A DNA stretch of 64,000 nucleotides from Gemmatimonadetes bacterium 13_2_20CM_2_65_7 (GCA_001915025.1 MNDR01000083.1:151-64150); one strand, 5' to 3'. Counted from the first letter of the stretch, positions 11,649-33,731 are shown. Translations and numbers: made by a program. The notes: a model not told the origin generated them from the letters alone.

Positions 11649-12551
11649 TCCCTCTTTCACGTAGCCGGCCGCGACGCCGCCCACGACCAGCGCGAGGCCG
11701 ACCCACCCGAGCAGTGTCAAGCGCTGGCTGAAAAGCGTGAGCGCAAGCAACGCCCCCACAACGGGCTCGACGGTGGCGGCAACTGATGCCGGCGCTGCTT
11801 CGATTCGTTTCACCGCCCCGAAGAAAAAGATATTGGCGGCGACCACCGATCCCGCAGCGAGTCCCAGCAAATCGCGCCATGCCGGCGGCGACGGCGGCCA
11901 GGCCGGCGGCCGGCCCCAGATCGACAGAGCGATCCAGATGAGCACGACACCGCCAATCGCTTCGAGGAACAAGACCTTGAGGACACCGTAGCGGGGCGCC
12001 GCATATCGCCCCATCAGCGTCGTCAATGCGTAGCTCAGCGCCGACAGCAATCCACCCGTAATGCCTGCGGCGATGCCCATGCGCGCCGCCTCCGCGCCGG
12101 CGTTGCTGCCGCCGGTCACCGTGAGCGCGACGCCGATCATGACGATGACCGCCAGCGCGATACGCGTTGCCGAGAGCTCTTCCTTGAGGATGATGCGGGC
12201 GAGCACGGCGACCATGACTGGCGCGGTGTACAGCAGTGCCGCCGCACCTGCGACGCCGACGCCCGCAATCGCGAACTGATACGCGATCTCGAACAGCGCG
12301 ACGAGGGCGCCCCCACCCAATCCGACCAACAGCCATCCCTTACGGTCTGTGCGGAAGAGCTCGCGACGGAAGAGCAGTCCCCAGATGGCTAACGCGATCG
12401 TGCCGATGAGCACGCGCCAGAAGCCGATGCTCGTCGCCGGCATGAGATCGTACAGACCGGTCGACAGCGGCCCGGTCGTTCCCCATGTCGCGCCGGCGGC
12501 GAGCGCGAGGAGATATCCGACAACGCGCTTTGGTCGTTGGAGTTCGGTCAC
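11598..12551 (-). CDS. EamA/DMT family transporter
   Basis: About 10 TM segments in two repeats, with LLYTAPV and ATVEPV. Convergent 51-bp overlap with the receptor gene. Confidence 0.88.
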   Translation of the reverse strand: MTELQRPKRVVGYLLALAAGATWGTTGPLSTGLYDLMPATSIGFWRVLIGTIALAIWGLLFRRELFRTDRKGWLLVGLGGGALVALFEIAYQFAIAGVGVAGAAALLYTAPVMVAVLARIILKEELSATRIALAVIVMIGVALTVTGGSNAGAEAARMGIAAGITGGLLSALSYALTTLMGRYAAPRYGVLKVLFLEAIGGVVLIWIALSIWGRPPAWPPSPPAWRDLLGLAAGSVVAANIFFFGAVKRIEAAPASVAATVEPVVGALLALTLFSQRLTLLGWVGLALVVGGVAAGYVKEGLKQQLEPQAEEPGRPV

Positions 12552-13363
12552 GAAGCCATTTTGTCCGCGGTGAGCTCACCGCGCAACACCGTCACGGCCT
12601 GCCCGGCGAGGCGCACGCGCCCGCTTCCGTCGAGCCGCACGCGCACAATGCCGCCGCGCGCCGACGCCTGGTAACCAGTCAGCGACTGCTTGCCGAGTTT
12701 GTCGCACCAGTACGGCGCGAGCGCGCAGTGTGCCGAGCCCGTGACGGGATCTTCGGGAACGCCGGACTGCGGCGCGAAGAAGCGCGATACGAAGTCGTAC
12801 TGCGCATCGCCTCCCCCATTCGCGCGGCTCGTGACGATGACGCCGCGGGCGGCGACGCGGCCGAGTGCGCCGAGGTCCGGATCGAGCCCTCGCACGGTCG
12901 ACTCGCTGTCGACTTCGACGAGATAGTCGAAGCGGCTGCGCCCCACGAAACGCGGCTTGATTCCCAACGCTTGGATCAACCCTGGTGGCGCTGGCGCAGG
13001 GGACGCTGGGGTTGCGGGGAAATCGAGCTCGATCCAGGCGTCGCGGCGATCGGCAGTCAACAGGCCGCTCTTTGTGTGGAAGCGCGCCTGGGTACTCGGC
13101 GTGAGATGCGCGTCTTCCCACAGCACGTGCGCGCTCGCCAGCGTGGCGTGGCCGCAAAGATCGACTTCGACGGCCGGCGTGAACCAGCGCAAATCATATC
13201 CATCCTGGCGACGAACGAGAAACGCGGTTTCGGCGAGGTTCATCTCGCGCGCGACGTTCTGCATCCACGCGGGTTCAGCGGCGTCGGGGAGAACGCAGAC
13301 CGCAGCGGGATTGCCCGCGAAGGGGCGGTTGGTAAACGCGTCGACTTGGGTTATACGAAGCAT
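12548..13363 (-). CDS. PhzF family (phenazine biosynthesis-like) isomerase
   Basis: QVDAFT..PFAGNPAAV, LRWFTP..EVDLCGHATLA and EDPVTGSAH. Start reset to 13363 (GAGGT upstream). Confidence 0.93.
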   Translation of the reverse strand: MLRITQVDAFTNRPFAGNPAAVCVLPDAAEPAWMQNVAREMNLAETAFLVRRQDGYDLRWFTPAVEVDLCGHATLASAHVLWEDAHLTPSTQARFHTKSGLLTADRRDAWIELDFPATPASPAPAPPGLIQALGIKPRFVGRSRFDYLVEVDSESTVRGLDPDLGALGRVAARGVIVTSRANGGGDAQYDFVSRFFAPQSGVPEDPVTGSAHCALAPYWCDKLGKQSLTGYQASARGGIVRVRLDGSGRVRLAGQAVTVLRGELTADKMAS

Positions 13364-19206: not shown

Positions 19207-19235
19207 TTGACAAGATCCGCAGCGCGGCATAGATG
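19207..19235 (+). promoter_or_regulatory. Candidate sigma70 promoter of the cyc2-cox operon
   Basis: Perfect TTGACA at 19207-19212, 17-bp spacer, weak -10 TAGATG. SD sequence GGAGGT at 19292-19297. Confidence 0.45.
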
Positions 19236-19301
19236 TGGCGTTGGATTGTCTGTCACCAGCCGTTCTCTCGCAGGGTCTTCTTCCCACGAGGGGAGGTTCA
19301 C

Positions 19302-20711
19302 ATGGTCAGGCGGTTCCTGAAGGCCGCAGCCCCGCTGGCGATGTTGGTTTGCGCGGCCATGGCACCAAACCCCGGCGGCAGCACGGTGGCCGCCACCTAC
19401 ACCGCAGCGTACGCGACCTACACGCACCGAATCCCATCGTTCGCGCGCAAGTACAACCTGCCGTGTTCGGCGTGTCATACCGCGTGGCCGGAGCTGAATG
19501 CCTTTGGACAGGCGTTCCGCGACAACGGCTACCAAATGATGAATGACCGCGACTCCCCCATCTGGCAGAACCCGTCCTACATCCCCGTGACATTCCGCGT
19601 GACGCCGAACTGGCACCGCGAGGGCGCTACGAAACAACCGGTGGACCCAACCCCCGGCGTGCCCAGCTGCGTGTCGGCGACGGGCGTAGGCTGCGTCCCC
19701 AGGACGCTGATGCAATCGGGCTTCGACCTGTCAGGCATGGATTTGTGGACGGCGGGCACGATATACAAGAACATCTCCTTCGTCCTGCTTCCCTCGGCCG
19801 ACGCGAACGCGTCGTTCCACTTCGAGGCCGCGTTCGTGCGGTTCGACAACCTGGCGGACAATCGCTGGGTCAACTTGAAGGTGGGAAAGTTCGAGCTCGA
19901 CAACCTGATCTCGGAGAAGCGGTTCCTGTTCCTGTCCGGCAACGGCGGCGTGTATCAGTCATACCATTTCCTGCCGGCCGGCGACGCGAACGACTTCGGA
20001 TTGGGCGACAATCAGATCGGTGCCGAGCTGTCGGGACACTCGCAAAACAGCTACACGCGCTATGGTGTGGCGCTGTTGAGCACCTCGTCCGGGAACCCCG
20101 GTCTCGTGTCGAGCAACGCGTACGACACCTACCTCACGTTCAGTCACGCCATCGACGCCGGCAAGCTGGGTGTGGAGCGCCTCGGCGTCTACGCGTACCT
20201 GGGCCGACGGCCCACGTACTTCCAGACCACGGATTCCGGCGCAGCAATTCCCGGCACGGGGACGGGGAACAAGCCGTTTTATCGCGTCGGCCTCTCCGGT
20301 GACTTCTTCTTCGGCGACTTCGAGTTGCTGCCGCTGGTGATGCACGCGTCGGACGACAAGTATCTGGCCAACGCGACGCCCTCGAACGGCACGCTGCCCG
20401 CTGGTGCCCAGGCTGCGACCTGGAATGCCGGATTCCTCGAGGCGCACTACTACGTCAGCCCGCAGCTCGTTTTCACCGGGCGGTTCGAAACGGTGCGGAT
20501 GGCGCAGCAGGCCATTTCCGGCACGCAGAAGAACCTCGGCGATGTGGATGCATTCTCGGGGGGCGTGCGCTGGTATCCGATCATGTTCAGCCGCGCCGGG
20601 TTGAGCTGGCATACGGAGATCTCCGCGGTGAGGATGCAGGGGTCGGTCTTTGCCGGGAGCGACCGCGTGTGGGCCACCAGCGTGTTCAGCGGACTGGACT
20701 TCGACTTCTAG
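19302..20711 (+). CDS. cyc2: Cyc2-like fused monoheme cytochrome c / outer-membrane porin
   Basis: Signal-like N-terminus, then IPSFARKYNLPCSACHTAWPELNAFGQAFRDNGY (PxFAR...CxxCH...PxL..FG..F...GY). About 380 aa of amphipathic beta-strands follow, ending in Phe (GLDFDF). Confidence 0.85.
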   Translation: MVRRFLKAAAPLAMLVCAAMAPNPGGSTVAATYTAAYATYTHRIPSFARKYNLPCSACHTAWPELNAFGQAFRDNGYQMMNDRDSPIWQNPSYIPVTFRVTPNWHREGATKQPVDPTPGVPSCVSATGVGCVPRTLMQSGFDLSGMDLWTAGTIYKNISFVLLPSADANASFHFEAAFVRFDNLADNRWVNLKVGKFELDNLISEKRFLFLSGNGGVYQSYHFLPAGDANDFGLGDNQIGAELSGHSQNSYTRYGVALLSTSSGNPGLVSSNAYDTYLTFSHAIDAGKLGVERLGVYAYLGRRPTYFQTTDSGAAIPGTGTGNKPFYRVGLSGDFFFGDFELLPLVMHASDDKYLANATPSNGTLPAGAQAATWNAGFLEAHYYVSPQLVFTGRFETVRMAQQAISGTQKNLGDVDAFSGGVRWYPIMFSRAGLSWHTEISAVRMQGSVFAGSDRVWATSVFSGLDFDF

Positions 20712-20724
20712 GGAGGGCCCGATC

Positions 20725-21573
20725 ATGAGACCGATCATTCGGCGCATGGCGCGCATGGCGGCTCTGAGCGTTCTCCTCGGAGCGGGGGGAACGACTGCGG
20801 GCTGGGCGCAAGAAAGCCAAGTCGGCAGCATCACCGGCCACACCGACGCTGGGAAAAAGTTGTACCGTCGCTACTGCATCGGCTGCCATGGGCCCAGCGG
20901 CGACGGAGCCGGCGAGAATGCACCGTGGATCGATCCCAAGCCGCGTGACTTCACGCTCGCCGTCTTTAAGTGCCGCTCGACGCCGAGCGGGACGCTGCCG
21001 ACTGATGAAGACCTGTTCAACGCGATCACCCGGGGGTTCGTCACGACGTACATGCCGCAGTGGCGTCCCCTCACCGCCCAAAACCGCACCGATCTCGTGG
21101 CGTACATCAAGACGTTCTCGCCGAAGTGGCGGAGCGGTAAGGCCGGAACACCGATCACGGTTCCGCCGGAGCCGGCGCCCACCGCGGAAAGCATCCTGCG
21201 CGGCCGCCAGCTATTCCAGCGGATGGAATGCTGGAAGTGCCACGGCCCTGCGGGCCACGGCGACGGTCCCTCGGCCGCGACGCTTACCGACAACAAAGAC
21301 CTGCCCATCCGGCCGTACGACTTCTCGACCGGCACGCGGTTCATGTGCGGAGCGACCAACCAGGATCTCTACCGCATCTTCATGACCGGCCTGGATGGCT
21401 CGCCGATGCCGTCGTTCGCCGACCAGCTGAAGCCCGCTGAGGCATGGGATCTCGTGCACTTCCTCCGGACACTGCAACCGATCGAAACCCGGGAGGCCGC
21501 GATCTGGCGGGACTGGTTGAACACGCACGCGCGTGAGCTGAAGCCGATTGGCCCTGGAGGAGGTGGACGATGA
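20725..21573 (+). CDS. Periplasmic diheme c-type cytochrome
   Basis: GGGAGG SD and signal peptide. Two homologous domains with CIGCH and CWKCH, each followed by a distal Met (YMPQW, PMPSF). Confidence 0.9.
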   Translation: MRPIIRRMARMAALSVLLGAGGTTAGWAQESQVGSITGHTDAGKKLYRRYCIGCHGPSGDGAGENAPWIDPKPRDFTLAVFKCRSTPSGTLPTDEDLFNAITRGFVTTYMPQWRPLTAQNRTDLVAYIKTFSPKWRSGKAGTPITVPPEPAPTAESILRGRQLFQRMECWKCHGPAGHGDGPSAATLTDNKDLPIRPYDFSTGTRFMCGATNQDLYRIFMTGLDGSPMPSFADQLKPAEAWDLVHFLRTLQPIETREAAIWRDWLNTHARELKPIGPGGGGR

Positions 21574-22277
21574 TGCTTCGGATTTTCGCAGGGTCCATGC
21601 TGGTGGTGCTCGTTGGAGCTGCGGGGCGCGGACCATTCCCCGCGGGCACGATCAATGGCAAGGTCACGTATACCGGCACCCCGCCCAAGGCACACCCGAT
21701 CGACATGGCGAAGGAACCAAACTGTGTGACCCAACACCCAACGCCGGTCTCCACCCAGGACGCGGTGACCGGCCCAGGCAACAGCGTTCGCTATGTCGTC
21801 GTCTACATTGCCGCCGGTGACCAGGGCGCCCCCGCGGCGACCGACACCGTTCATTACGATCAGAAGGGTTGCATGTACATTCCGCACGTGGCGGCAATGC
21901 AGGTGCACCAGCCGCTCGCGATCTTCAACGATGACCCGCACTCCCACAACATCCACCCGCTCGCTCGAATCAATCCGGAGTGGAACAAGTCGCAGCCCAA
22001 GGGAGCGCCCCCAATCCGGACCACGTGGGAGCAGCCGGAGTTCATTGCGGTCAAGTGCAATGTGCACCCCTGGATGCACGGCTATTTCGCGGTGCTCGCG
22101 ACGCCGCATTTCAGCGTGACCGATACCACCGGTGCCTTTATGCTCGCGGGACTGCCGCCGGGCAAATACACGGTGACGGCGTGGCACGAGCGCTTTGGGA
22201 CGCAGAGTCAAGAGGTGACAATTGGCGGAGCCGAGACGAAGACCGTCAATTTCGTGCTGACCGCGAAGCCCTACTAA
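21570..22277 (+). CDS. Exported cupredoxin-like protein within a carboxypeptidase-regulatory-like Ig fold
   Basis: Signal peptide; HNIH plus C-N-V-H-P-W-M loop (type-1 Cu ligand spacing as in amicyanin CxxHPxM); GLPPGKYTVTAWHE. Confidence 0.8.
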   Translation: MMLRIFAGSMLVVLVGAAGRGPFPAGTINGKVTYTGTPPKAHPIDMAKEPNCVTQHPTPVSTQDAVTGPGNSVRYVVVYIAAGDQGAPAATDTVHYDQKGCMYIPHVAAMQVHQPLAIFNDDPHSHNIHPLARINPEWNKSQPKGAPPIRTTWEQPEFIAVKCNVHPWMHGYFAVLATPHFSVTDTTGAFMLAGLPPGKYTVTAWHERFGTQSQEVTIGGAETKTVNFVLTAKPY

Positions 22278-22280
22278 GCC

Positions 22281-23084
22281 ATGGGGCGGTTGTTTGCCGT
22301 CGTCGTGGCCGTAATCGCGCTGGTCTCCGCGGCGATCTTCGCGCTGCACATCTGGTGGCTGCCCCCCGACATCTCTGTCCACGGCGGCGGGATCGATCGT
22401 CAGCTGAACGAGACGATGGTCGTCGCTGGCGTGCTGTTCGTGCTCGCGCAGCTGGCGCTGGCCGCGTTCGTCTGGCGTGCGGGCGAGAAGCAGCAACCGC
22501 GACCAGTCAAGGTATTTCCGGGCGGCGCGACGCCGATGGTCGTCGTTGCTACCGTGCTGGTCGGCTTCGAAATCCTGGTGCTGACATTCGTGGGCTCGAA
22601 GCTGTGGGCGGGCGTGTACCAGACGCTGCCCGCGCCGGGTTCCTTACAGATCGAAGTCCAGGCCGAGCAGTTCGCGTTCTATTTCCGCTACGCCGGCAAG
22701 GACGGGAAGTTCGGCGGCATGCATCCCGAGCTGATGAACGATGCGACCGAGAACTTCTTCGGGCTGGATCCCGCCAATGACACGACCGCTCGTGACGACA
22801 TTGTCGTCGCGAGCCTGGTGATCCCGGTAGATCAGCCCATCCTGCTGCAGATGCACGCGAAGGACGTCAATCATTCCTTTTACGTGCCGGAGCTGCGCAT
22901 CCAGCAGGACTTCGTGCCTGGCATGGTGATTCCGCTGCATTTCACGGCGACGATCCCTGGGAAGTACGAGCTGGTATGTACGCAGCTGTGCGGGCTGGGG
23001 CACTATAACATGCGCGCGTATGTCGAAGTGAAGACGGCCGCCGATTTCAGCCAATGGCTCAAGCAGAAGGAGGCCGAGCAGTGA
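22281..23084 (+). CDS. coxB: Cytochrome c oxidase subunit II (CuA)
   Basis: TM helices, DVNHSFYVPELRIQQDFVPG and CTQLCGLGHYNM. Confidence 0.95.
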   Translation: MGRLFAVVVAVIALVSAAIFALHIWWLPPDISVHGGGIDRQLNETMVVAGVLFVLAQLALAAFVWRAGEKQQPRPVKVFPGGATPMVVVATVLVGFEILVLTFVGSKLWAGVYQTLPAPGSLQIEVQAEQFAFYFRYAGKDGKFGGMHPELMNDATENFFGLDPANDTTARDDIVVASLVIPVDQPILLQMHAKDVNHSFYVPELRIQQDFVPGMVIPLHFTATIPGKYELVCTQLCGLGHYNMRAYVEVKTAADFSQWLKQKEAEQ

Positions 23085-24829
23085 CCGCTCCGGCGCACGT
23101 GCACGCGGCACCGCCGCAAAGCTTCCTGCGCAAGTACGTCTTCAGCGTCGACCACAAGGTGATCGGCCGGCAATACCTCGATCTGGCGCTCGTCGCTGTG
23201 GTGACGGGGATGGTGTTGTCGTGGATCATGCGCTTCCACCTCGGCTTTCCAGACACTGCTATACCCGGCCTCGGGAAGGTCGCGCCGACGGGCGCCGCCG
23301 GCGGGGTGATCACGCCGGAGTACTACCTCGAGCTGATGACGATGCACGGCACGATCATGGTCTTCTTCGTGCTGACGACGGCGCCATTCGCGGGCTTCGG
23401 CAACTATGTCCTGCCGCTTCAGGTGGGCGCCGAAGATATGGCGTTTCCGCGCATCAACATGATGTCGTTTTGGGTGACCTTGCTCGCGTTTCTCGTCCTC
23501 GTCGCGGCCTTCTTTATCGGCGATGGCCCGCCGCTGTCGGGATGGACGGCGTACGCGCCGCTCAGTGCGGTCGGCAAGGACGCGGGCCCGGGCCAGGGCA
23601 TGGGTCAAACGCTCTGGGCCTTCTCCATTGCCATCTTTTGCATAGCGCAACTACTGGGGGCCCTCAACTTCATTGCCACCACGCTCGATCTGCGCACCAG
23701 AGGAATGTCGCTCGCGCGGCTGCCATACTCGACCTGGGCGTGGTTCATCACCGCCGTGATCGCGCTGATCGCCTTCGCCGTGCTCATGCCCGCCTGCATT
23801 CTGTTGATTCTCGATCGCGTGGCGGGCACGAGTTTCTTCATTCCCGCCGGGCTCGTGCTCAGCGATCGCCTCCAGCCGCACGCAGGGGGATCCCCGCTGT
23901 TGTGGCAGCACCTCTTCTGGTTCTTCGGGCATCCGGAGGTGTACGTTGCGATCCTGCCCGGGTTCGGGATCGTCTCGCACATCCTGCCGGTGTTTACCCG
24001 CAAGCCGCTGCTCGGACCGCGAGTCTTTATCGCCTGCCTGATCGCGATCGCCTTTCTCAGCTACACGGTGTGGGGTCATCACATGTTCCTGAGCGGGATG
24101 AACCCCTTTTCGGCGACGCTCTTTTCCGTACCGACGCTGGTGATCACCATTCCGGCGACGATCATCACGCTGTTGTGGATCGGCACGATCTACGGAGGAC
24201 GGCTGCGCTTCACGGCGGCGTCGCTATTCGCGCTCGGCTTCGTCTCGGTGTTCGTGAGCGGCGGCATCAGCGGCTTCTTTCTGGCGCAGCCGTCCACCGA
24301 CATCTACCTCCACGGCACCTACTTCGTCGTCGCGCATTTCCACTTCGTGATGGGCGTTGCGGCGATGTTCGGGATTTTCGCGGGCACGTATTTCTGGTTC
24401 CCGAAACTATTCGGCCGATTCATGAACGAGACGCTGGGGAAGTGGCACTTCTGGCTCACGTTGATCGGCGTGTATTGCATTTTCATGCCGATGCACTACC
24501 TCGGGCTCGCGGGCAACGTGCGTCGCTACTCCGCGTTCACGGACGATTACTTGAAGCCGCTGATCCCGCTGCATCGCTTCATCACGATCGCGGCGCTCTT
24601 TACGGGCGCCGTGCAGCTCATCTTCCTCTTCAATCTCTTCCGCAGCCGGTTCCGGGGAGCGAAGGCGCCGGATAATCCGTGGGAGGCCACCACGCTCGAG
24701 TGGTCCACGTCCTCACCGCCGCCGGTGGACAATTTCGGCGGCCGTCATCCCGTCGTGACACACGGCCCCAACGAATACGGCGTCAATGATGGACGCGGCC
24801 GCGACTACATCATGCAGGCGGCGGACTGA
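23081..24829 (+). CDS. coxA: Heme-copper oxygen reductase subunit I, A1-type
   Basis: DHKVIG, TMHGTIMVF, DMAFPRIN, WFFGHPEVY, VWGHHM, VAHFHFV and RRY. GTG overlaps the coxB stop. Confidence 0.96.
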   Translation: MTAPAHVHAAPPQSFLRKYVFSVDHKVIGRQYLDLALVAVVTGMVLSWIMRFHLGFPDTAIPGLGKVAPTGAAGGVITPEYYLELMTMHGTIMVFFVLTTAPFAGFGNYVLPLQVGAEDMAFPRINMMSFWVTLLAFLVLVAAFFIGDGPPLSGWTAYAPLSAVGKDAGPGQGMGQTLWAFSIAIFCIAQLLGALNFIATTLDLRTRGMSLARLPYSTWAWFITAVIALIAFAVLMPACILLILDRVAGTSFFIPAGLVLSDRLQPHAGGSPLLWQHLFWFFGHPEVYVAILPGFGIVSHILPVFTRKPLLGPRVFIACLIAIAFLSYTVWGHHMFLSGMNPFSATLFSVPTLVITIPATIITLLWIGTIYGGRLRFTAASLFALGFVSVFVSGGISGFFLAQPSTDIYLHGTYFVVAHFHFVMGVAAMFGIFAGTYFWFPKLFGRFMNETLGKWHFWLTLIGVYCIFMPMHYLGLAGNVRRYSAFTDDYLKPLIPLHRFITIAALFTGAVQLIFLFNLFRSRFRGAKAPDNPWEATTLEWSTSSPPPVDNFGGRHPVVTHGPNEYGVNDGRGRDYIMQAAD

Positions 24830-24831
24830 TC

Positions 24832-25407
24832 ATGGCCGCCGTGATGCCGCCCCCTCCGCTCACGACGCGACCCACTGCCACCGTCACGGAGGCGCCGCGG
24901 GCGCAGCCCGGGCGGACAGGCATGTGGATCGCGATCGCAACGATCTCCATGTCCTTCGCGGCGTTGACCAGTGCCATGGTGGTGCGGCAGAGTGGCGCTC
25001 CCGACTGGCGGCATTTTCACCTGCCGTCCATCCTCTACGCCAACACCGCGGTTCTCCTGATCAGCAGCCTCACGCTCGAGTGGGCGAGGCGGCGATCGGC
25101 GGCAGCATTGTCGGTGACGCTCGGCCTCGGGCTCTTGTTCGTGGCTGGACAGATCACTGCGTGGCGCGAACTCAGCGCGCAGGGGCTGTTCCTCGCGACG
25201 GCGGCGAGTAGCTCGTTCTTTTACGTCTTCACGGCGCTGCACGGCCTGCATGTGATGGGAGGTTTGGGTGCTGTCGGATATCTCCTCCAGCGGCGCCTGG
25301 TGGCGGGCCGAGTCGCACCCACAACGTTCGCGGCCACCGCGTTGTACTGGCACTTCATGGCGGTGCTGTGGCTGTACCTGCTGGTCCTCCTGGTGGCGCG
25401 CGTATGA
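24832..25407 (+). CDS. coxC: Cytochrome c oxidase subunit III family protein (copy 1)
   Basis: GMWIAI, NTAVLLISSLT, FFYVFTALHGLHVMGG and LYWHFM. Confidence 0.88.
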   Translation: MAAVMPPPPLTTRPTATVTEAPRAQPGRTGMWIAIATISMSFAALTSAMVVRQSGAPDWRHFHLPSILYANTAVLLISSLTLEWARRRSAAALSVTLGLGLLFVAGQITAWRELSAQGLFLATAASSSFFYVFTALHGLHVMGGLGAVGYLLQRRLVAGRVAPTTFAATALYWHFMAVLWLYLLVLLVARV

Positions 25408-26015
25408 GCCACAGCGCGGCGCTGGCGGCGAGCGAGCCCTCTCCGTATCAAATCCCGTCGCGCAAGCTCGGCATCTGGATGTTCATCCTCGCCGACGCGG
25501 CGACATTCGGTGCGATGCTGTTCGCGTATGGCTATTTGCGCGTGGCCAATCCCGACTGGAACCGCCCGTTCGCGTTCTGGCCATCGATCGTGAACGGCAT
25601 CGGGATGACCGTGATTTTGCTAACGAGCAGCCTCACCATGGTCGCCGCGATGCTGGAGTCACAGCGAGGGCGCACCAGCGCGGCACTGCGCTGGCTCGGC
25701 GCGACAATGGCGCTGGGCGCGCTGTTCGCAGCGTTGCACCTGCGGGAATGGGTTGCGCTGATCGGCAGCGGATGGAGGTTGTTCCGGAATCCACTTGGCG
25801 GCACGCCGCTCGTGGGCGCGACGTTCTTCAGTATCACGGGGCTTCACATGCTCCACGTGATTAGCGGTGTCGTCGTGATCGGCGTGATTGGACTCGGCTT
25901 TCGGCGGGGCCGTTTCACGGCCAGTCATGTCGAGATCACGGGCCTCTATTGGCACTTCGTAGATCTGGTCTGGATGTTCGTGTTTCCGCTCGTCTATCTC
26001 TTGAACATGCGCTGA
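25404..26015 (+). CDS. coxC: Cytochrome c oxidase subunit III family protein (copy 2)
   Basis: KLGIWMFILAD, FFSITGLHMLHV and GLYWHFVDLVWMFVFPLVYL. ATGA overlap with copy 1. Confidence 0.9.
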   Translation: MSHSAALAASEPSPYQIPSRKLGIWMFILADAATFGAMLFAYGYLRVANPDWNRPFAFWPSIVNGIGMTVILLTSSLTMVAAMLESQRGRTSAALRWLGATMALGALFAALHLREWVALIGSGWRLFRNPLGGTPLVGATFFSITGLHMLHVISGVVVIGVIGLGFRRGRFTASHVEITGLYWHFVDLVWMFVFPLVYLLNMR

Positions 26016-26024
26016 GGATCGGCG

Positions 26025-26306
26025 ATGAAGCGCTACGTTGTGGTGTGGATGGGATTGCTGGCGATCGTTGCAGCTGAGGTGGTGATTACGCTCGCCCGCC
26101 CGGCGACTTTGGTTCTGCTTGCGGTGTTGCTTGCGCTGGCAATCGTGGAAGGCGGACTCGCACTCTTGTACTTCATGCATCTCAAGTATGAGCGACGCAA
26201 TCTGTTGTGGAGCCTGATTCCGACGCTTGTCATCGTCCTAGTACTTATGGGGCACTTCTTTCCGGATGCATTCCGCCTGATGCATCAGCGGGGCACCGCG
26301 CCCTGA
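26025..26306 (+). CDS. coxD: Cytochrome c oxidase subunit IV family protein
   Basis: Three TM segments and the LYFMHLKYE motif. Confidence 0.88.
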   Translation: MKRYVVVWMGLLAIVAAEVVITLARPATLVLLAVLLALAIVEGGLALLYFMHLKYERRNLLWSLIPTLVIVLVLMGHFFPDAFRLMHQRGTAP

Positions 26307-26620: not shown

Positions 26621-27292
26621 ATGCAACGGTCACCGCTGACACTCCTGCTCGTACTCAGCGCGGTCCAAGGTCCGGCGACACGCGGCGCGCACGTGACCGG
26701 CAGAATCGTGATCCTGGAGAAGGACAACAAGCCGTCGCCCGATCTCGACGATGCGGTGCTGTATCTCGAGGGAAACGCCGCCGCGCCGGTCAAACCGGTG
26801 ACCGTCGAGATCGCCATCACGGACAAGACGTACGCGCCGCATGTGGTGGTCGTCCCCGTCGGATCGACGGTGCGCTTTCCGAATCACGATCCCTTCAATC
26901 ACAACGTCTTCTCGGTCAGCGAGCCGAATCAATTCGACCTCGGCCTGTACGGCCGCGGTGACGCCAAGAGCCATACGTTCACGAATCCGGGACTCGTGCG
27001 CGTGTACTGCAACGTGCATCCGCGCATGGTCGCCTACGTGCAGGTCATGGCGAACCGGTACTACGGGCAGCCCGGGACCGACGGCAGCTTCACGATCGAC
27101 AACGTCCCGGCGGGCCGATATCGGCTGCACGTCTGGCACGAGCGCATTCCAACGGAGATCGTGCGGGACGTGACCGCAGGTGGCGATTCCACCGTGCAAA
27201 TCGCGCTGAACGCTCGCGGCTACCACTGGGAACCACACCGTAACAAGTACGGACGCAACTATCCCACCAATGCCGGACGCGAGCGCTACTAA
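26621..27292 (+). CDS. Second exported cupredoxin-like/Ig-fold protein
   Basis: Signal peptide; VRFPNHDPFNHNVFS, YCNVHPRM and VPAGRYRLHVWHE. Confidence 0.82.
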   Translation: MQRSPLTLLLVLSAVQGPATRGAHVTGRIVILEKDNKPSPDLDDAVLYLEGNAAAPVKPVTVEIAITDKTYAPHVVVVPVGSTVRFPNHDPFNHNVFSVSEPNQFDLGLYGRGDAKSHTFTNPGLVRVYCNVHPRMVAYVQVMANRYYGQPGTDGSFTIDNVPAGRYRLHVWHERIPTEIVRDVTAGGDSTVQIALNARGYHWEPHRNKYGRNYPTNAGRERY

Positions 27293-29300
27293 ACCGGCGT
27301 TCGGGCTCACCGCAAAGATCTTTCTCGCCTCGACCCTGCTGGTCGTGGCAGTGCTCGGTGTCACGTTTGGCCTCACGTCCATTCAGGCGAACCGCACGGC
27401 GGACGCGTCGATTCACCGAGCCCTCCTGGCCACGCGCCGCGCGGTCGACGACTATCTGGCCGCGCGCACGCGCACGCTGAGCCGCGCCAGCACCGTCGCC
27501 ACCGACGTGCCCCAATACCGCCAGCGGCTCCTGAACCAGCGGGATCGTGCCGAAGCACTCGATCAGGCGGACGACGTGCGCGGCCTGATCGGCGCGGCGT
27601 GGGTTTTAGTGACGAACAGCGAGGGGGTTCTCATCGCGCGCACCGACTACCGGGAGCAGTACGATCGGGACCTGTCGGTGGCGCCGCTCGTCGCCAATGC
27701 GCTGAGCGGCGATCAGACGAGCGGCGCGTGGCTCGATGACGTGCAGGGAACGATGTTCATCGCGATCGGGACGCCGCTGCGCGACCGTCCCACCGCGGCG
27801 CCGCTCGGCGCCCTGGTTGCGACCTATCAGATCGACGATTCGCTCGCCCAGGCGATCAAGCAGACCACCAATTCCGACGTGGTGTTCTTCTCGCTCGACA
27901 CGCTCAATCGGCCGGTCGTGGTCGGCAGCACGGTTCCCGCGCAGGAGATCGGTCCGGTGTTACGCGACGCGGTCCGCGCCGAGTCGCTCGCCGCCGACAC
28001 GGGTGGGGCGGGCATGGCGCTCGTTGCGTCGATGGGTGGCCAGCATCTCATCGGCCTCGCGGGCGCGATCCGTTCCCCGGGCGGGGACGTCAGAGGCGGC
28101 TTTGTGGCGCTCCGCTCGCGCGAGGCGGAGCTGGCGGCATTCAATGCGCTGCGCCGCACGATGTTCTTCGCGATTGGGTTGGGGATCGTGCTGGCGCTGG
28201 TCTTCGCGTTCGTGCAGGCGCGCCAGATCAGCGGGCCGGTCCGGCGACTCGCGCTGGCGACACGGCAGGTGCAGGACGGCGACTACAGCGTCAACATCGA
28301 CGTGAAATCGAAGGACGAGATCGGGGTCCTGTCACAGGCGTTCAAGAGCCTCGTCGAGGATCTGAAGGAGAAAGCGGCGCTGGTCGATTACATGATGGCC
28401 GCGTCCGGCGCCGCGGCCACGCAGCCGCTTGCGTCCGTCCCGACCGTCATCAGGGACGCGGCCGGCGGTCAGATGCGACCGGGTGCGGTGTTCGCCGGCC
28501 GCTACGAGGTGAAAGAAATCCTCGGCGCGGGAGGAATGGGCGTCGTATATCGCGCGTTCGATCGCGAGCTGCAAGAGCCGGTCGCCATCAAGACGCTGAG
28601 GCCGGAAGCGATGGCGGGCGGCACAGTCGCGCTCGATCGCTTCAAGCAGGAAATCCGCCTGGCGCGCCGCATCGCGCACCGCAACGTCGTGCGCACGTAC
28701 GATCTCGGCGAAGTGAATGGGACGTACTACCTCACGATGGAGTACGTCGAAGGCACGTCGCTCAAACAGCTCATCGCTTCGCGCGGACGGTTACCGGTCG
28801 CCGTGACGTTGACGGTCGGCAAACAGTTGTGTCGAGCGCTCGAAGTCGCCCACGCCGAAGGCATTATTCACCGCGACATCAAACCGCAGAACATGGTCGT
28901 CGATCCCAGCGGTTTTCTGAAGGTGATGGACTTCGGTATCGCGCGGCTCGCCAATCCGCCCAAGGGCAAAGGGCTGACCGAGGCGGGGATATCGATCGGA
29001 ACTCCCGATTACATGTCGCCCGAGCAGCTCTCCGGCGCCGATCTCGATCCACGCAGCGACCTCTATTCGGCGGGTGTGGTGCTGTTCGAGTGTTTGACTG
29101 GCCGTGTGCCGTTTGAAGCAGACACGACGTGGGCGCTCGTCGCGAAGCATCTGGAGGAGGAGCCGCCCAATCCGCGCACACTCAACGCGGACGTACCGGA
29201 GGCTCTGGCGATAGTGATTCTTAAGGCGATGGCAAAGGATCGTGAGAAGCGATTCCCGACGGCGGCGGAGATGTTCGACGCCCTGGCGCGCATCGGCTGA
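27270..29300 (+). CDS. Membrane Ser/Thr protein kinase with Cache-like sensor and HAMP domain
   Basis: TM, extracytoplasmic domain, TM, HAMP (GDYSV...DEIGVLSQAF). Kinase motifs LGAGGMGVVY, VAIK, HRDIKPQN, DFG, GTPDYMSPEQ and SDLYSAG. Confidence 0.93.
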   Translation: MPDASATKPAFGLTAKIFLASTLLVVAVLGVTFGLTSIQANRTADASIHRALLATRRAVDDYLAARTRTLSRASTVATDVPQYRQRLLNQRDRAEALDQADDVRGLIGAAWVLVTNSEGVLIARTDYREQYDRDLSVAPLVANALSGDQTSGAWLDDVQGTMFIAIGTPLRDRPTAAPLGALVATYQIDDSLAQAIKQTTNSDVVFFSLDTLNRPVVVGSTVPAQEIGPVLRDAVRAESLAADTGGAGMALVASMGGQHLIGLAGAIRSPGGDVRGGFVALRSREAELAAFNALRRTMFFAIGLGIVLALVFAFVQARQISGPVRRLALATRQVQDGDYSVNIDVKSKDEIGVLSQAFKSLVEDLKEKAALVDYMMAASGAAATQPLASVPTVIRDAAGGQMRPGAVFAGRYEVKEILGAGGMGVVYRAFDRELQEPVAIKTLRPEAMAGGTVALDRFKQEIRLARRIAHRNVVRTYDLGEVNGTYYLTMEYVEGTSLKQLIASRGRLPVAVTLTVGKQLCRALEVAHAEGIIHRDIKPQNMVVDPSGFLKVMDFGIARLANPPKGKGLTEAGISIGTPDYMSPEQLSGADLDPRSDLYSAGVVLFECLTGRVPFEADTTWALVAKHLEEEPPNPRTLNADVPEALAIVILKAMAKDREKRFPTAAEMFDALARIG

Positions 29301-31454: not shown

Positions 31455-32785
31455 TGTCGCTGCTGCTTCGCGGCGGCCGGGTGGTCACAATGGATCCGTC
31501 GCGGCGCATTCTGGAAGCCGACATTCTCGTAGAAACAGGCCGAATCAAGAGCGTTGGAACGTTGGAACGTCGGAAGGTTGGGACGAAAAAGCCCCTCATC
31601 CTCGACTGTACGGGGCTGATCGTTCTTCCCGGGTTAGTGCAAGCCCACATCCATCTTTGTCAAACGCTGTTCCGGGGCCTAGCGGAGGATCTCACCCTCG
31701 AGGCATGGCTCGCCCAGCGCATCTGGCCGCTCGAAGCGGCGCACACCGAGACTTCGATTTATTGGTCGGCGATGCTGGGCGCGGCCGAGCTCCTGCTCGG
31801 CGGCACCACGGCGATCCTCGACATGGAATCGGTGCGACACACCGGCGCCGCATTCGAAGCGCTCGAATCAATCGGCATCCGCGCGACCGCGGGCAAGTGT
31901 CTCATGGACGCTCCCTCGAGCCCGTCCGCTCTGCGCGAATCAACCGATCTTGCGTTGCAGGAGAGCGCGGCCCTCTGTGCGCGTTGGCACGGCGCCGCGG
32001 GCGGCCGATTGCGTTACTGCTTTGCGCCACGGTTCGCGCCAAGCTGCACTGGGCCGTTGCTGAGGGCGGTGAGCGATCTCGCTGAGAAGGCCGGCGCCGT
32101 CGTCCACACGCATGCCGCCGAAACGCCGCTCGAGCTGGAGCTCGTGAAGCGCGAACGCGGCAATGACGAAATCGCCTATCTCGACTCGGTCGGCATTTCG
32201 GGGCCGCGGGCCGCGCTGGCGCACTGCGTGTGGGTCGATAAAGAGGGAATTGCGCGCCTCGCGCGCCAGGCCACCAACGTCGTCCATTGTCCCAGCTCGA
32301 ACCTGAAACTGGGCAGCGGGATCGCACCGATTCCGGAAATGCTCGCGGCCGGCTGTCGCGTCGGGATCGGTGCGGACGGCGCTCCGTGCAATAACCGTCT
32401 GGACGTGTTCACGGAGATGCGGCTCGCGGCCCTGATTCAGAAGCCGCGCCATGGGCCCGATTCCCTGCCGGCCGCGCACGTGCTCGAGCTTGCCACGCTC
32501 GGCGGCGCGCGCGCGTTGGGGCTTCAAGCGGAGATCGGCTCTATAGAAGAGGGGAAGTGCGCGGATTTAGTGGTGCTGGATCTCGAAGAACCACACGCGC
32601 AGCCCGAGGACGCCGATCTGGTTTCGCGGATCGTCTACAGTGCCCAGGCCGCTGACGTTCGCCATGTGGTCGTCGATGGCCACGTCGTCGTCCACGATGG
32701 TGTTCTCAAAACCGCCGATACCAGGGAGATCCGCCGTGGCGCGAATACTGAGGCTCGTCGCCTGCGCCGCGCTGTGGGCATCTAG
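31454..32785 (+). CDS. Metal-dependent amidohydrolase (MTA/SAH or 5'-deoxyadenosine deaminase-like)
   Basis: LPGLVQAHIH, HTHAAET, LAHCVW, HCPSSNLKLGSG, GADGAPCNN and GSIEEGK.ADL. Confidence 0.9.
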   Translation: MSLLLRGGRVVTMDPSRRILEADILVETGRIKSVGTLERRKVGTKKPLILDCTGLIVLPGLVQAHIHLCQTLFRGLAEDLTLEAWLAQRIWPLEAAHTETSIYWSAMLGAAELLLGGTTAILDMESVRHTGAAFEALESIGIRATAGKCLMDAPSSPSALRESTDLALQESAALCARWHGAAGGRLRYCFAPRFAPSCTGPLLRAVSDLAEKAGAVVHTHAAETPLELELVKRERGNDEIAYLDSVGISGPRAALAHCVWVDKEGIARLARQATNVVHCPSSNLKLGSGIAPIPEMLAAGCRVGIGADGAPCNNRLDVFTEMRLAALIQKPRHGPDSLPAAHVLELATLGGARALGLQAEIGSIEEGKCADLVVLDLEEPHAQPEDADLVSRIVYSAQAADVRHVVVDGHVVVHDGVLKTADTREIRRGANTEARRLRRAVGI

Positions 32786-33731
32786 CCTCAGCGCGCAAGG
32801 AGACAGTCTCTATACGGCATGGTGCAGTCACTGCCATGGCGCCGATGCCCGCGGCACGCCCGCGGCGACAACCAAACTCGACGTGCCGCCGGCCGATCTT
32901 GCGTCGTGCGCCGCATCCACGGCGGAGACGGAAGACCGTTGGGTCGGGATCGTCACGCGTGGCGGGGCGGCCTTTGGCTTGTCGCTCGATATGCCCGCGT
33001 ACGGCGAGGGTGCGACACGCGATCAAATCCGCATGGTCGTCCGTTACGTGCGCTCGCTGTGCGGCGAGCACGGCTGGCCTCCCGGCGAGCTGAACTTTGC
33101 GCGAGGCTTTCTCATCGAGAAGGCCTTCCCAGAGAATGAGCTTATCGCCGTCGCGCATGCATATGAACAACAGCTCATTTACGAGCGGCGCATGGGCCGT
33201 CGCTTCCAGTTCGAAGCAGAAGCGACGACCGTCCTCGATTCACAGGGCCGCCCATTTGAGTCCGTAACGGGTGCTCTCAAGTACAACATCTGGCACAGCC
33301 TCGAGCATCGTGCTCTCGCCACGCTGGGTGTCGAGGCGACGCCCCCGCTCGGCCGGCGCGACCGGTGGGAGCTCGCGCCGTACCTGTCGGCCGGCGCAGA
33401 ACGGCTCGGTTTCACCATCCAAGGCCAGGCGGTGGCGAGTTGGGAAGAGGCCCGAGGTATTGCGGGTGCGTCGTACCGGTTGGGCATCAGCCATGAGATT
33501 GCCGCAAGACGATTGGTGCCGATGATCGAAGCGGGGTGGGACGTGCCGCAGGCCGGCGCAAATGCCCTTTCCCTCTATCCTCAGCTCTGGATCAAGCTGT
33601 CACGGCTCGGTCACGTCGCAGGATGTCTCGGCGCCGAGGTTCCCGTGACCGGCGTGTCACCGCCCCGATCGAAGCTGATCGCGTTTCTGCTGTGGGATTT
33701 TGGTGACGCGCCGCTACTCCGCGGTTGGTGA
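32736..33731 (+). CDS. Monoheme cytochrome c fused to a probable small beta-barrel
   Basis: GGGAG SD before GTG 32736, signal peptide, CSHCH and distal Met DMPAY. C-terminal about 200 aa of alternating amphipathic strands, ending in W. Confidence 0.72.

What the first reader, a model, noticed from the sequence alone, without database searches (positions are those of the whole stretch)
19302..26306. Cyc2-porin / diheme cytochrome / cupredoxin / cytochrome c oxidase operon: a rus-operon-like extracellular electron uptake chain in an unexpected host
Seen: eight co-directional genes, overlapping or at most 13 bp apart. In order: a Cyc2-signature cytochrome-porin (PSFARKY..CSACH..PELNAFG..F...GY plus a barrel ending in Phe), a periplasmic diheme cytochrome c, a protein with type-1 Cu ligands (H...CNVHPWM), then coxB, coxA, two coxC and coxD. 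Established: the Acidithiobacillus ferrooxidans rus operon runs cyc2-cyc1(diheme)-cup/acoP(cupredoxin)-coxBACD-rus and carries electrons from outer-membrane Fe(II) oxidation to O2. Inference: this operon is a self-contained outer-membrane-to-O2 electron conduit, possibly for Fe(II), Mn(II) or humic oxidation, in a peptide-scavenging heterotroph-like (Gemmatimonadota-like) genome. The diheme and cupredoxin genes look like analogues rather than orthologues of Cyc1 and AcoP, so the module may have assembled convergently. Caveat: Cyc2 homologues also occur in organisms not shown to oxidise iron.
Basis: partly seen in the sequence, partly recalled or inferred. Interest (0 to 1): 0.9.

Follow-up and report, generated by a model that had tools for sequence, protein, structure and literature searches.

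The report
Cyc2-linked cytochrome oxidase operon
A soil bacterium of the Gemmatimonadota group carries a tightly packed operon that looks built to take electrons from dissolved iron outside the cell and pass them to oxygen; the gene set is real and widespread, but a 2020 preprint had already noted it and its function is still untested.

Summary
Eight co-directional genes lie at 19302-26306: a heme-porin fusion, a diheme cytochrome c, a cupredoxin, then coxB, coxA, two coxC and coxD.

ORF1 meets every published sequence and fold criterion for Cyc2 that I could test. It has PXFAR[QK][TY], a single CXXCH, PXL four residues later, 469 aa, and an OprP/OprO-like barrel. FeGenie HMMs were not available.

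The third gene models as an amicyanin-like type-1 copper protein with invariant His/Cys/His/Met. The diheme cytochrome resembles PDB 6H5L chain B, not cytochrome c4.

Among the 80 closest of 566 relatives in species-representative genomes, the diheme gene follows in 77 of 77 loci, the cupredoxin in 71 of 76 and coxB in 59 of 74. Two loci carry a cbb3-type oxidase instead.

The host is not unexpected. A 2020 preprint already reported rus-like COX clusters with other cytochromes and duplicated COX3 in Gemmatimonadetes soil MAGs.

Best reading: an outer-membrane Fe(II)-to-O2 side chain in a probable heterotroph. The function is inferred. No RNA data were found.

The parts
19207..19301 (+). Upstream region: weak promoter-like TTGACA (19207-19212), 17 nt, TAGATG (19230-19235), and a GGAGG Shine-Dalgarno at 19292-19296, 5 nt before the ATG
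   Evidence: Read directly. The consensus scan found no promoter-like site by its own criteria, so this is a hint only.
19302..20711 (+). cyc2-like gene: signal peptide, monoheme cytochrome domain (RIPSFARKY..CSACH..PEL), C-terminal beta-barrel porin ending in Phe (469 aa)
   Evidence: criteria from PMC8406198
20725..21573 (+). Periplasmic diheme cytochrome c (CIGCH with M110, CWKCH with M228; 282 aa)
   Evidence: Pfam Cytochrom_C x2. PDB 6H5L chain B, E 1.4e-56 over residues 40-253. Conservation.
21570..22277 (+). cupA: amicyanin-like type-1-Cu cupredoxin domain plus C-terminal CarboxypepD_reg beta-sandwich (235 aa); candidate ligands H126 or H129, C163, H166, M169
   Evidence: pLDDT 89.4; amicyanin, pseudoazurin and plastocyanin are the top matches
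22281..23084 (+). coxB, subunit II with CuA site (H198, C233, C237, H241, M244) and no fused cytochrome c domain
23054..24829 (+). coxA, A-family heme-copper oxidase subunit I (GHPEVY motif)
   Evidence: Pfam COX1 443 bits. TIGR02891 577 bits, below its 670.75 cut-off. Closest solved chains are aa3 oxidases.
24832..25407 (+). coxC copy 1 (subunit III-like, 191 aa)
25368..26015 (+). coxC copy 2 (subunit III-like, 215 aa; alternative ATG at 25404)
26025..26306 (+). coxD (prokaryotic subunit IV, 93 aa)
   Evidence: Pfam COX4_pro
26621..27292 (+). cupB: paralogue of cupA (31% identity; YCNVHPRM; Copper-bind, weak amicyanin and CarboxypepD_reg matches), 314 bp after coxD. Membership of the unit is uncertain.
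   Evidence: Conserved in the same position in L036 (75% identity).

Best explanation
The operon encodes a complete branch of aerobic respiration that starts at the outer membrane. A Cyc2-type monoheme cytochrome fused to a porin oxidises a small soluble reductant that enters its pore, most likely dissolved Fe(II). Two periplasmic carriers relay the electron: an amicyanin-like type-1-copper protein and a diheme cytochrome c. The electron reaches the CuA site of a dedicated A-family (aa3-type) cytochrome c oxidase, which reduces O2 and pumps protons. I infer the order Cyc2 -> cupredoxin -> diheme c -> CuA, by analogy with Cyc2 -> rusticyanin -> Cyc1 -> aa3 and because the diheme protein resembles the fused diheme tail of the cbb3 oxidases in sister loci. 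This order is not shown. The host has two other A-family oxidases, and no RuBisCO was found. The chain therefore probably supplements heterotrophic energy (lithoheterotrophy) or removes Fe(II) at the cell surface, rather than supporting autotrophy. Shown here: gene content, motifs, folds, conservation of linkage. Inferred: substrate, direction and order of electron flow, physiological role.
For: Cyc2 identity of ORF1:
- It has PSFARKY, a single CSACH, and PEL starting 4 residues after the His, in 469 aa. These are the criteria in PMC8406198 (passages).
- The strict PXFAR[QK][TY] motif is present in 81 of 81 family members examined, a single CXXCH in 80 of 81, and a C-terminal Phe or Tyr in 80 of 81.
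- The AlphaFold2 model (pTM 0.70) has a barrel over residues 96-468. Its best PDB matches are OprP 2o4v (E 2.7e-13) and OprO 4rjw, the same templates that PMC8406198 names for Cyc2.

Carriers:
- cupA models at pLDDT 89.4. Amicyanin, pseudoazurin and plastocyanin are its top matches, with TM about 0.7 by target.
- H126, C163, H166 and M169 are invariant and H129 is at least 90% conserved in 31 sequences. C..H..M occurs in 68 of 70.
- The diheme protein keeps two CXXCH in 76 of 79 sequences, and both axial-Met candidates, M110 and M228, are conserved in at least 90% of 79. It matches the diheme chain B of PDB 6H5L at E 1.4e-56.

Oxidase:
- The CuA ligands of CoxB are invariant in 27 of 27 sequences. 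CoxA is an A-family oxidase.

Linkage, among the 80 best of 566 relatives, counting only loci with enough downstream sequence:
- diheme 77 of 77, cupA 71 of 76, coxB 59 of 74, coxA 53 of 67.
- In L028 and L032 the same trio is followed by a cbb3-type oxidase (COX1 plus a FixO-diheme fusion). The constant partner of the trio is therefore an O2 reductase.
- Cyc2-linked CoxA is 68-89% identical across loci from two phyla in all but three of the loci where it was found. It is only 40-47% identical to the two other CoxA genes of the same genome, so the operon travels as a unit.

Support functions are encoded elsewhere in the genome: cytochrome c maturation, heme A synthase and a UbiA-family gene beside the C21 oxidase.

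Fe(II) oxidation has been shown in vitro for several Cyc2 homologues: PMC8406198 abstract, PMC13692758 abstract, PMC13647500 abstract.
Against: - No experiment or expression data bear on this operon. No RNA-holding sequencing run was found.
- No FeGenie HMM score or placement in the three Cyc2 clusters could be obtained, and no named iron-oxidiser Cyc2 sequence could be brought in for a tree.
- The cytochrome domain of the model (residues 20-90) has pLDDT below 50, so its position relative to the barrel is unknown.
- The window protein has Arg rather than Ala at the first position of AXPXFAR. It has 3 residues, not the '5' worded in the paper, between the motif and CXXCH. All 81 relatives share this spacing.
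- PMC8406198 and marker surveys stress that Cyc2 homologues occur in organisms not known to oxidise iron. PMC11316326 says oxidation and reduction cannot be told apart from annotation.
- 15 of 74 loci lack coxB downstream. In at least L007 and L065 unrelated genes follow the trio, so the oxidase link is frequent but not obligatory.
- No RuBisCO and no cytochrome b were found, but the genome is only 81.7% complete.
- The NCBIfam equivalog scores for CoxA and CoxB are below their curated cut-offs.
Confidence: 0.6

Rival explanations
1. Same architecture and direction (outer membrane to O2), but the natural electron donor is not Fe(II). It could be Mn(II), Cu(I), reduced humic or quinone compounds, or another small reductant able to enter a narrow porin.
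For: Nothing in the sequence specifies the substrate. Measured Cyc2 heme potentials span a wide range: +208 mV in the PMC8406198 abstract and -130 mV in the PMC13692758 abstract. The carriers are soil organisms (20 soil metagenome runs hold the stretch), where humics and Mn are abundant.
Against: Every Cyc2 homologue assayed so far, in the papers whose abstracts or passages I read, oxidised Fe(II). No other substrate is reported in those texts.
Confidence: 0.15
2. The porin-cytochrome and the cupredoxin-like protein serve biogenesis or metal supply for a dedicated oxidase, not respiration on an external donor. For example, they could import or chaperone copper to CuA/CuB.
For: cupA sits immediately before coxB. 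Cupredoxin-fold copper chaperones exist: S. pneumoniae CupA, 4f2e, appears at rank 31. The operon lacks its own ctaA/ctaB or SCO genes.
Against: The invariant His-Cys-His-Met set with a C-x2-H-x2-M loop is the amicyanin-type electron-transfer site. The same trio precedes a cbb3-type oxidase, which has no CuA, and also occurs without any adjacent oxidase. A c-type heme fused to the porin has no obvious role in metal import.
Confidence: 0.08
3. The Cyc2-like protein is an electron outlet or two-way valve. The diheme and cupredoxin pool, reduced from the quinone pool, passes electrons either to the oxidase or outward to extracellular acceptors when O2 is scarce.
For: PMC11316326 notes that iron oxidation and reduction cannot be distinguished from Cyc2 annotation. 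Some loci have the trio without an oxidase.
Against: The trio is linked to O2 reductases of two different families in 61 of 74 loci (59 with coxB; 2 with cbb3). No quinol dehydrogenase gene lies in the operon. Assayed homologues act as Fe(II) oxidases.
Confidence: 0.07

Closest known systems
[quoted passage not shown]
   Same: The preprint describes variants of the Acidithiobacillus iron-oxidation COX cluster in Gemmatimonadetes MAGs. These variants have other cytochromes c in place of Cyc1, a duplicated COX3, and ctaA elsewhere in the genome. All of this holds for this window.
   Different: The preprint gives the clusters in a figure and a supplementary table that I could not see. Its text does not analyse the Cyc2 criteria, the cupredoxin fold, the 6H5L-like diheme protein, the prevalence or the cbb3-linked variant. 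The peer-reviewed version (PMC8239418) no longer mentions Cyc2 and names Gemmatimonadetes only once, in a table.
Acidithiobacillus ferrooxidans rus operon (cyc2-cyc1-cup/acoP-coxBACD-rus), as described
   Same: Same gene logic and order: outer-membrane Cyc2, diheme cytochrome c, cupredoxin immediately before coxB, then an aa3-type oxidase.
   Different: There is no rusticyanin gene. The diheme protein is not detectably c4/Cyc1-like (no such chain at E <= 0.01), and cupA matches no solved cupredoxin by sequence (E <= 1). cupA carries an extra CarboxypepD_reg domain. There are two coxC genes. No ctaA/ctaB lies in the operon. The host is a neutral-soil organism that looks heterotrophic rather than an acidophilic autotroph.
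Cyc2 pathway of neutrophilic iron oxidisers (Zetaproteobacteria, Gallionellaceae) and Leptospirillum Cyt572 with a cbb3 oxidase (PMC7029218, PMC8406198, PMC10654088)
   Same: A fused monoheme cytochrome-porin with the PXFAR motif feeds periplasmic carriers and a terminal oxidase. The L028 and L032 relatives use a cbb3-type oxidase. PMC10654088 links Cyt572 to a dense cluster of Acidobacteria homologues.
   Different: In this family the whole chain is encoded in one operon, with a cupredoxin, and mostly with an A-family oxidase. Cluster assignment (1, 2 or 3) was not determined.
Diheme cytochrome c chain B of PDB 6H5L (Kuenenia stuttgartiensis HAO-like complex; organism; the name Kustc0457 is recalled, not from a call)
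   Same: E 1.4e-56 over residues 40-253 of 282, with both heme motifs and Met regions aligned. It is a partner subunit of a multiheme redox enzyme.
   Different: The organism, partner and pathway all differ. The two Cys conserved in this family (C83, C208) are Phe and Gly in 6H5L_B.

Membership tests
Cyc2 fused cytochrome-porin (criteria of PMC8406198) | N-terminal signal peptide | tested here: inconclusive
   MVRRFLKAAAPLAMLVCAAMA has a basic n-region and a hydrophobic core. I judged this by eye; no signal-peptide predictor was run.
Cyc2 fused cytochrome-porin (criteria of PMC8406198) | Single CXXCH heme-binding motif | tested here: met
   There is one CSACH. 80 of 81 family members have exactly one.
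Cyc2 fused cytochrome-porin (criteria of PMC8406198) | [A]XPXFAR[Q/K][T/Y] motif just upstream of CXXCH (screening form PXFAR[Q/K][T/Y]) | tested here: met
   The window has RIPSFARKY. The strict screening form is present in 81 of 81. The window has R where the consensus has A, and the spacing to CXXCH is 3 residues.
Cyc2 fused cytochrome-porin (criteria of PMC8406198) | PXL motif 4 residues after CXXCH | tested here: met
   The window has CSACH-TAW-PEL. The full pattern is present in 81 of 81.
Cyc2 fused cytochrome-porin (criteria of PMC8406198) | Length of at least 365 aa with a C-terminal beta-barrel of about 16 strands, structurally like OprO/OprP | tested here: met
   The protein is 469 aa. 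The model has 18 DSSP strand elements between residues 96 and 468. OprP 2o4v and OprO 4rjw rank 1 and 3 in Foldseek. The exact strand number is not resolved.
Cyc2 fused cytochrome-porin (criteria of PMC8406198) | Score above threshold with a FeGenie Cyc2 cluster HMM, or placement in the reference tree | not testable with these tools
   No FeGenie HMMs or named reference sequences were available. Attempts gave none.
Cyc2 fused cytochrome-porin (criteria of PMC8406198) | Fe(II) oxidase activity | not testable with these tools
   This needs expression and an assay.
A. ferrooxidans-type rus operon | Order cyc2, diheme cytochrome c, cupredoxin, coxB, coxA, coxC, coxD | tested here: met
   There is an extra coxC.
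A. ferrooxidans-type rus operon | Rusticyanin gene and Cyc1 (c4-type) / AcoP orthologues | tested here: not met
   No rus gene is present. cupB, 314 bp downstream, is a cupA paralogue. Searching the PDB with the diheme protein gives 6H5L_B and no c4 chain at E <= 0.01. cupA matches no solved cupredoxin by sequence at E <= 1. That Cyc1, AcoP and rusticyanin structures are in the PDB is recalled, not checked.
A-family (aa3-type) cytochrome c oxidase | COX1 with a GHPEVY-type active-site helix; COX2 with the full CuA ligand set; subunits III and IV | tested here: met
   Pfam COX1 443 bits, COX2, COX3 x2, COX4_pro. H198, C233, C237, H241 and M244 are invariant in 27 of 27. GHPEVY was read. NCBIfam equivalog scores are below cut-off (CoxA 577 against 670.75; CoxB 111.9 against 147.7).
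Type-1 copper cupredoxin (amicyanin-like) | Cupredoxin fold with His, Cys, His, Met ligands (C-x2-H-x2-M loop) | tested here: met
   The model has pLDDT 89.4. Amicyanin is the top match, E 5.6e-05, TM 0.68-0.71 by target. H126, C163, H166 and M169 are invariant and H129 is at least 90% conserved. Pfam gave only the C-terminal CarboxypepD_reg domain for cupA. Copper binding itself was not tested.

The most novel reading that the evidence does not exclude
The three genes cyc2, diheme cytochrome c and cupredoxin form a portable electron-uptake cassette. It plugs into whichever O2 reductase is at hand: aa3 in most loci, cbb3 in some, none adjacent in others. It has spread through Acidobacteriota and Gemmatimonadota, two of the most abundant soil phyla. 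If it oxidises Fe(II), a large share of iron oxidation in ordinary oxic-to-hypoxic soils would be done by heterotrophs as a side income. These organisms are invisible to culture-based lists of iron oxidisers.
Probability: 0.35. Interest if true: 0.7.

Novelty: already known. Interest (0 to 1): 0.4.

Why it matters
Which organisms oxidise Fe(II) in circumneutral soils is poorly known, and Cyc2 is the main marker gene in use. This analysis shows that in Acidobacteriota and Gemmatimonadota the marker does not stand alone. It heads a conserved and apparently complete path to a terminal oxidase. That raises the odds that these Cyc2 hits are functional, and it names concrete partner proteins (a 6H5L-like diheme cytochrome and an amicyanin-like cupredoxin) to test. 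The gene cluster was already noted in a 2020 preprint and Cyc2 hits in these phyla are routinely reported. The value lies in sharpening and quantifying a known lead, not in discovery.

Tried and rejected
- Named Cyc2 references. tblastn against plasmids gave one weak Methylocystis hit. A second homologue search seeded with the distant relative P0201 returned 16 proteins without organism names. The ESM Atlas gave only unnamed Acidobacteriota clusters, and a Porin_O_P family on 20% of the members of one cluster.
- PDB sequence search with ORF1: no match at E <= 10.
- The search for related loci with the diverse alignment A2 failed because no stretch was conserved enough. I used the closer alignment A1 instead.
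- Promoter and terminator scan: 0 promoter-like sites, and 13 terminator-like sites against 5.6 +/- 2.4 in shuffles. None was convincing at a gene boundary, so the scan says nothing on transcription units.
- Rfam over the whole window: no match.
- Expression: no RNA holder was listed among 20 runs, so co-transcription could not be examined.
- Complex prediction for the CoxB periplasmic domain with cupA returned no verdict (median score 0.26, mark 0.32). This is neither support nor evidence against.
- I considered chance linkage or an assembly chimera and rejected both. An independent contig, L001, carries the same genes, and the order is conserved in other genomes.
- I considered a quinol oxidase and rejected it, because all CuA ligands are kept.
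- Paper supplements were closed. Supplemental Table S1 and Fig. 1d of the 2020 preprint, which list and draw the Gemmatimonadetes clusters, were not seen and may include this very population.
- The claim that the operon's details are not otherwise in print rests only on searches of the open-access library.

Full report
**What is there.** Between 19302 and 26306 the + strand carries eight genes with spacings of 13, -4, 3, -31, 2, -40 (or -4) and 9 bp.
- Pfam and NCBIfam identify genes 2 and 4-8 as a two-domain cytochrome c, COX2, COX1, two COX3-like proteins and COX4_pro.
- Gene 1 matches no curated family except a sub-threshold porin model (BBP2, 18.9 bits against a cut-off of 26.2).
- Gene 3 matches only a C-terminal CarboxypepD_reg domain.
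- A paralogue of gene 3, cupB (26621-27292), lies 314 bp after coxD. It has weak Copper-bind and amicyanin matches. A HAMP-Ser/Thr kinase gene follows.
- GC content is even across the window, 0.61-0.69.
- A GGAGG lies 5 nt before the ATG at 19302, and a weak TTGACA-17-TAGATG lies 90 nt upstream. The consensus scan found no promoter-like site.

**Is ORF1 a Cyc2?** Keffer et al. (PMC8406198; passages read) define the family by these features:
- a signal peptide;
- one CXXCH;
- an AXPXFAR[Q/K][T/Y] motif just upstream (they screened with PXFAR[Q/K][T/Y]);
- PXL four residues downstream;
- at least 365 residues;
- a 16-strand porin that models on OprO/OprP.

The window protein reads RIPSFARKY-NLP-CSACH-TAW-PEL, is 469 aa long and ends in Phe. 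I examined 80 related loci plus the window. The strict motif and the full pattern occur in 81 of 81, a single CXXCH in 80 of 81, and a terminal Phe (73) or Tyr (7) in 80 of 81. An alignment with relatives down to 28% identity keeps P45, F47, C55, C58, H59, P63, G69, D74 and G76 invariant.

The AlphaFold2 model (mean pLDDT 68.4, pTM 0.70) shows 18 strand elements between residues 96 and 468. Residues 20-90, the heme domain, are below pLDDT 50, so its placement is unknown. Foldseek ranks OprP (2o4v, E 2.7e-13) first and OprO (4rjw) third.

All testable criteria are met.

**The two carriers.** cupA models with high confidence (pLDDT 89.4).
- Its best structural matches are amicyanin, pseudoazurin and plastocyanin, with E from 5.6e-05 and TM about 0.7 by target.
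- In 31 aligned sequences H106, H126, C163, H166 and M169 are invariant, and H129, C52 and C101 are nearly so.
- The C-x2-H-x2-M loop occurs in 68 of 70. The other two, L028 and L032, have C-x3-H-x2-M.

The diheme cytochrome has a signal-like N-terminus, two CXXCH motifs and conserved Met110 and Met228.
- Its only strong solved relative is chain B of 6H5L, at E 1.4e-56 over residues 40-253. A preprint cites this entry as a Kuenenia stuttgartiensis HAO structure. That chain B is the diheme partner Kustc0457 is my recollection.
- No c4-type chain appears at E <= 0.01, and no solved cupredoxin matches cupA by sequence at E <= 1.

**The oxidase.** CoxB keeps H198, C233, C237, H241 and M244 in 27 of 27 sequences and has no fused cytochrome domain. 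CoxA has GHPEVY and is closest to solved aa3 oxidases.

The genome is 81.7% complete with 0.22% contamination, and holds two more A-family oxidase loci. One on C21 lies next to a UbiA-family gene. One on C72 is caa3-type, with a CoxB-cytochrome c fusion.

Cytochrome c maturation and CtaA genes lie elsewhere. RuBisCO and cytochrome b were not found. In an incomplete genome that is not proof of absence.

**How general is the linkage?**
- The family is large. 3853 proteins reached E <= 0.001 among the 8000 candidates scored. 2001 cluster representatives reached E <= 0.001 in the exhaustive search.
The 80 best (46-100% identity) are nearly all MAGs titled Acidobacteriota or Gemmatimonadota.
- I counted only loci with enough downstream sequence. 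The diheme gene follows in 77 of 77, cupA in 71 of 76 (three of the five exceptions have it upstream), coxB in 59 of 74, coxA in 53 of 67, coxC2 in 53 of 65 and coxD in 44 of 63.
- These counts describe the closest relatives only.
- In L028 and L032 the trio is followed by a cbb3-type oxidase: a 470-aa COX1 plus a FixO-diheme fusion whose diheme part is 47-48% identical to the window's diheme protein.
- In L007 and L065 unrelated genes follow the trio.
- Cyc2-linked CoxA proteins are 68-89% identical to the window's in all but three of the loci where coxA was found. The window genome's own paralogues are 40-47% identical. The operon therefore behaves as one heritable unit.

**Host and history.**
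- In a sample of the window's own phylum, 28 of 301 genomes (including the window's) have the gene at E <= 1e-20. They are confined to two families, 24 of 125 and 3 of 69, and are patchy within genera.
- I built a quick maximum-likelihood tree of all 81 sequences (SH-aLRT support only, no rows dropped). It places the window in a 21-row clade with support 99. The clade holds all 16 Gemmatimonadota rows. It sits beside one Acidobacteriota clade, with a second, larger one outside.
- The root is at the midpoint only, so the direction of transfer is not established.
- A few rows are titled Chloroflexi, Bacillota, Eisenbacteria or Limnocylindria, among them L001, which is identical to the window. 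These may be binning errors.

**What is already in print.**
- 23 open papers mention both Cyc2 and Gemmatimonadota. Marker surveys list Cyc2 in Gemmatimonadota and Acidobacteriota MAGs (passages).
- bioRxiv 10.1101/2020.03.01.968255 (passages) is the closest. [quoted passage not shown] It adds that several variants encode other cytochromes c instead of Cyc1 and a duplicated COX3, and that ctaA lies elsewhere. That is the arrangement seen here.
- The peer-reviewed version (PMC8239418) no longer mentions Cyc2 and names Gemmatimonadetes once, in a table.
- My searches found no text that analyses the cupredoxin, the 6H5L-like cytochrome, the prevalence or the cbb3 variant. Supplements and subscription journals were not searched.

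**Verdict.** The trio is consistently tied to an O2 reductase, of two different families, and all redox ligands are conserved. This argues for electron flow from the outer membrane to oxygen, with Fe(II) the likeliest donor because every assayed Cyc2 homologue oxidises it. The substrate, the carrier order, co-transcription and the physiological role remain inferred. No RNA data were found, and a CoxB-cupA complex prediction gave no verdict. The host is not surprising and the cluster type has been reported, so the finding is a well-supported instance of a known, functionally untested system.

Noticed in passing
window 26621-29300: A second cupredoxin-CarboxypepD_reg gene (cupB, 31% identical to cupA) lies 314 bp after coxD. 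A membrane HAMP-Ser/Thr protein kinase follows directly. cupB keeps this position in L036 (75% identity). Weaker cupA-like genes lie about 3 kb after coxD in L026, L030, L049, L062 and L076.
   Followed up: partly
L001 (whole locus); L029, L062, L073: L001, a 7.5 kb contig of a MAG titled Chloroflexi, is 98-100% identical in protein to the window's cyc2-coxB genes. Other operon-bearing contigs sit in MAGs titled Bacillota, Eisenbacteria and Limnocylindria, yet nest inside Gemmatimonadota or Acidobacteriota clades of the Cyc2 tree. Mis-binning is the likely cause, or else recent transfer.
   Followed up: partly
G000:C72 about 11357-12854 (L082): The caa3-type coxA of the same genome matches COX1 in two pieces that lie in different reading frames. 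This is an apparent frameshift: either an assembly error or a broken gene.
   Followed up: partly
G217:C5:1058537-1059799: In one genome of the same family the Cyc2-like gene appears as four adjacent fragments, which suggests a decayed copy.
   Followed up: no
window 20725-21573 and 21570-22277: Both carriers have a conserved extra pair of cysteines: C83 and C208 in the diheme cytochrome, one per domain, and C52 and C101 in cupA. The diheme pair is absent from 6H5L_B. They may be disulfides or extra ligands.
   Followed up: no
L036, L074, L077 versus the window: In these Gemmatimonadales loci the cox genes and cupA are 64-89% identical to the window's, but Cyc2 is only 47-52% identical and sits on a long branch. 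The outer-membrane component evolves much faster than the rest of the operon.
   Followed up: partly
window 32640-33731: Another predicted cytochrome c domain protein (363 aa, Cytochrome_CBB3/Cytochrom_C) lies about 6 kb downstream, next to an amidohydrolase gene.
   Followed up: no
L018 3128-4650; L054 1904-4163: Some acidobacterial loci carry an additional diheme-plus-cupA-like pair, or a further coxA/coxC pair, a few kb upstream of the operon.
   Followed up: no
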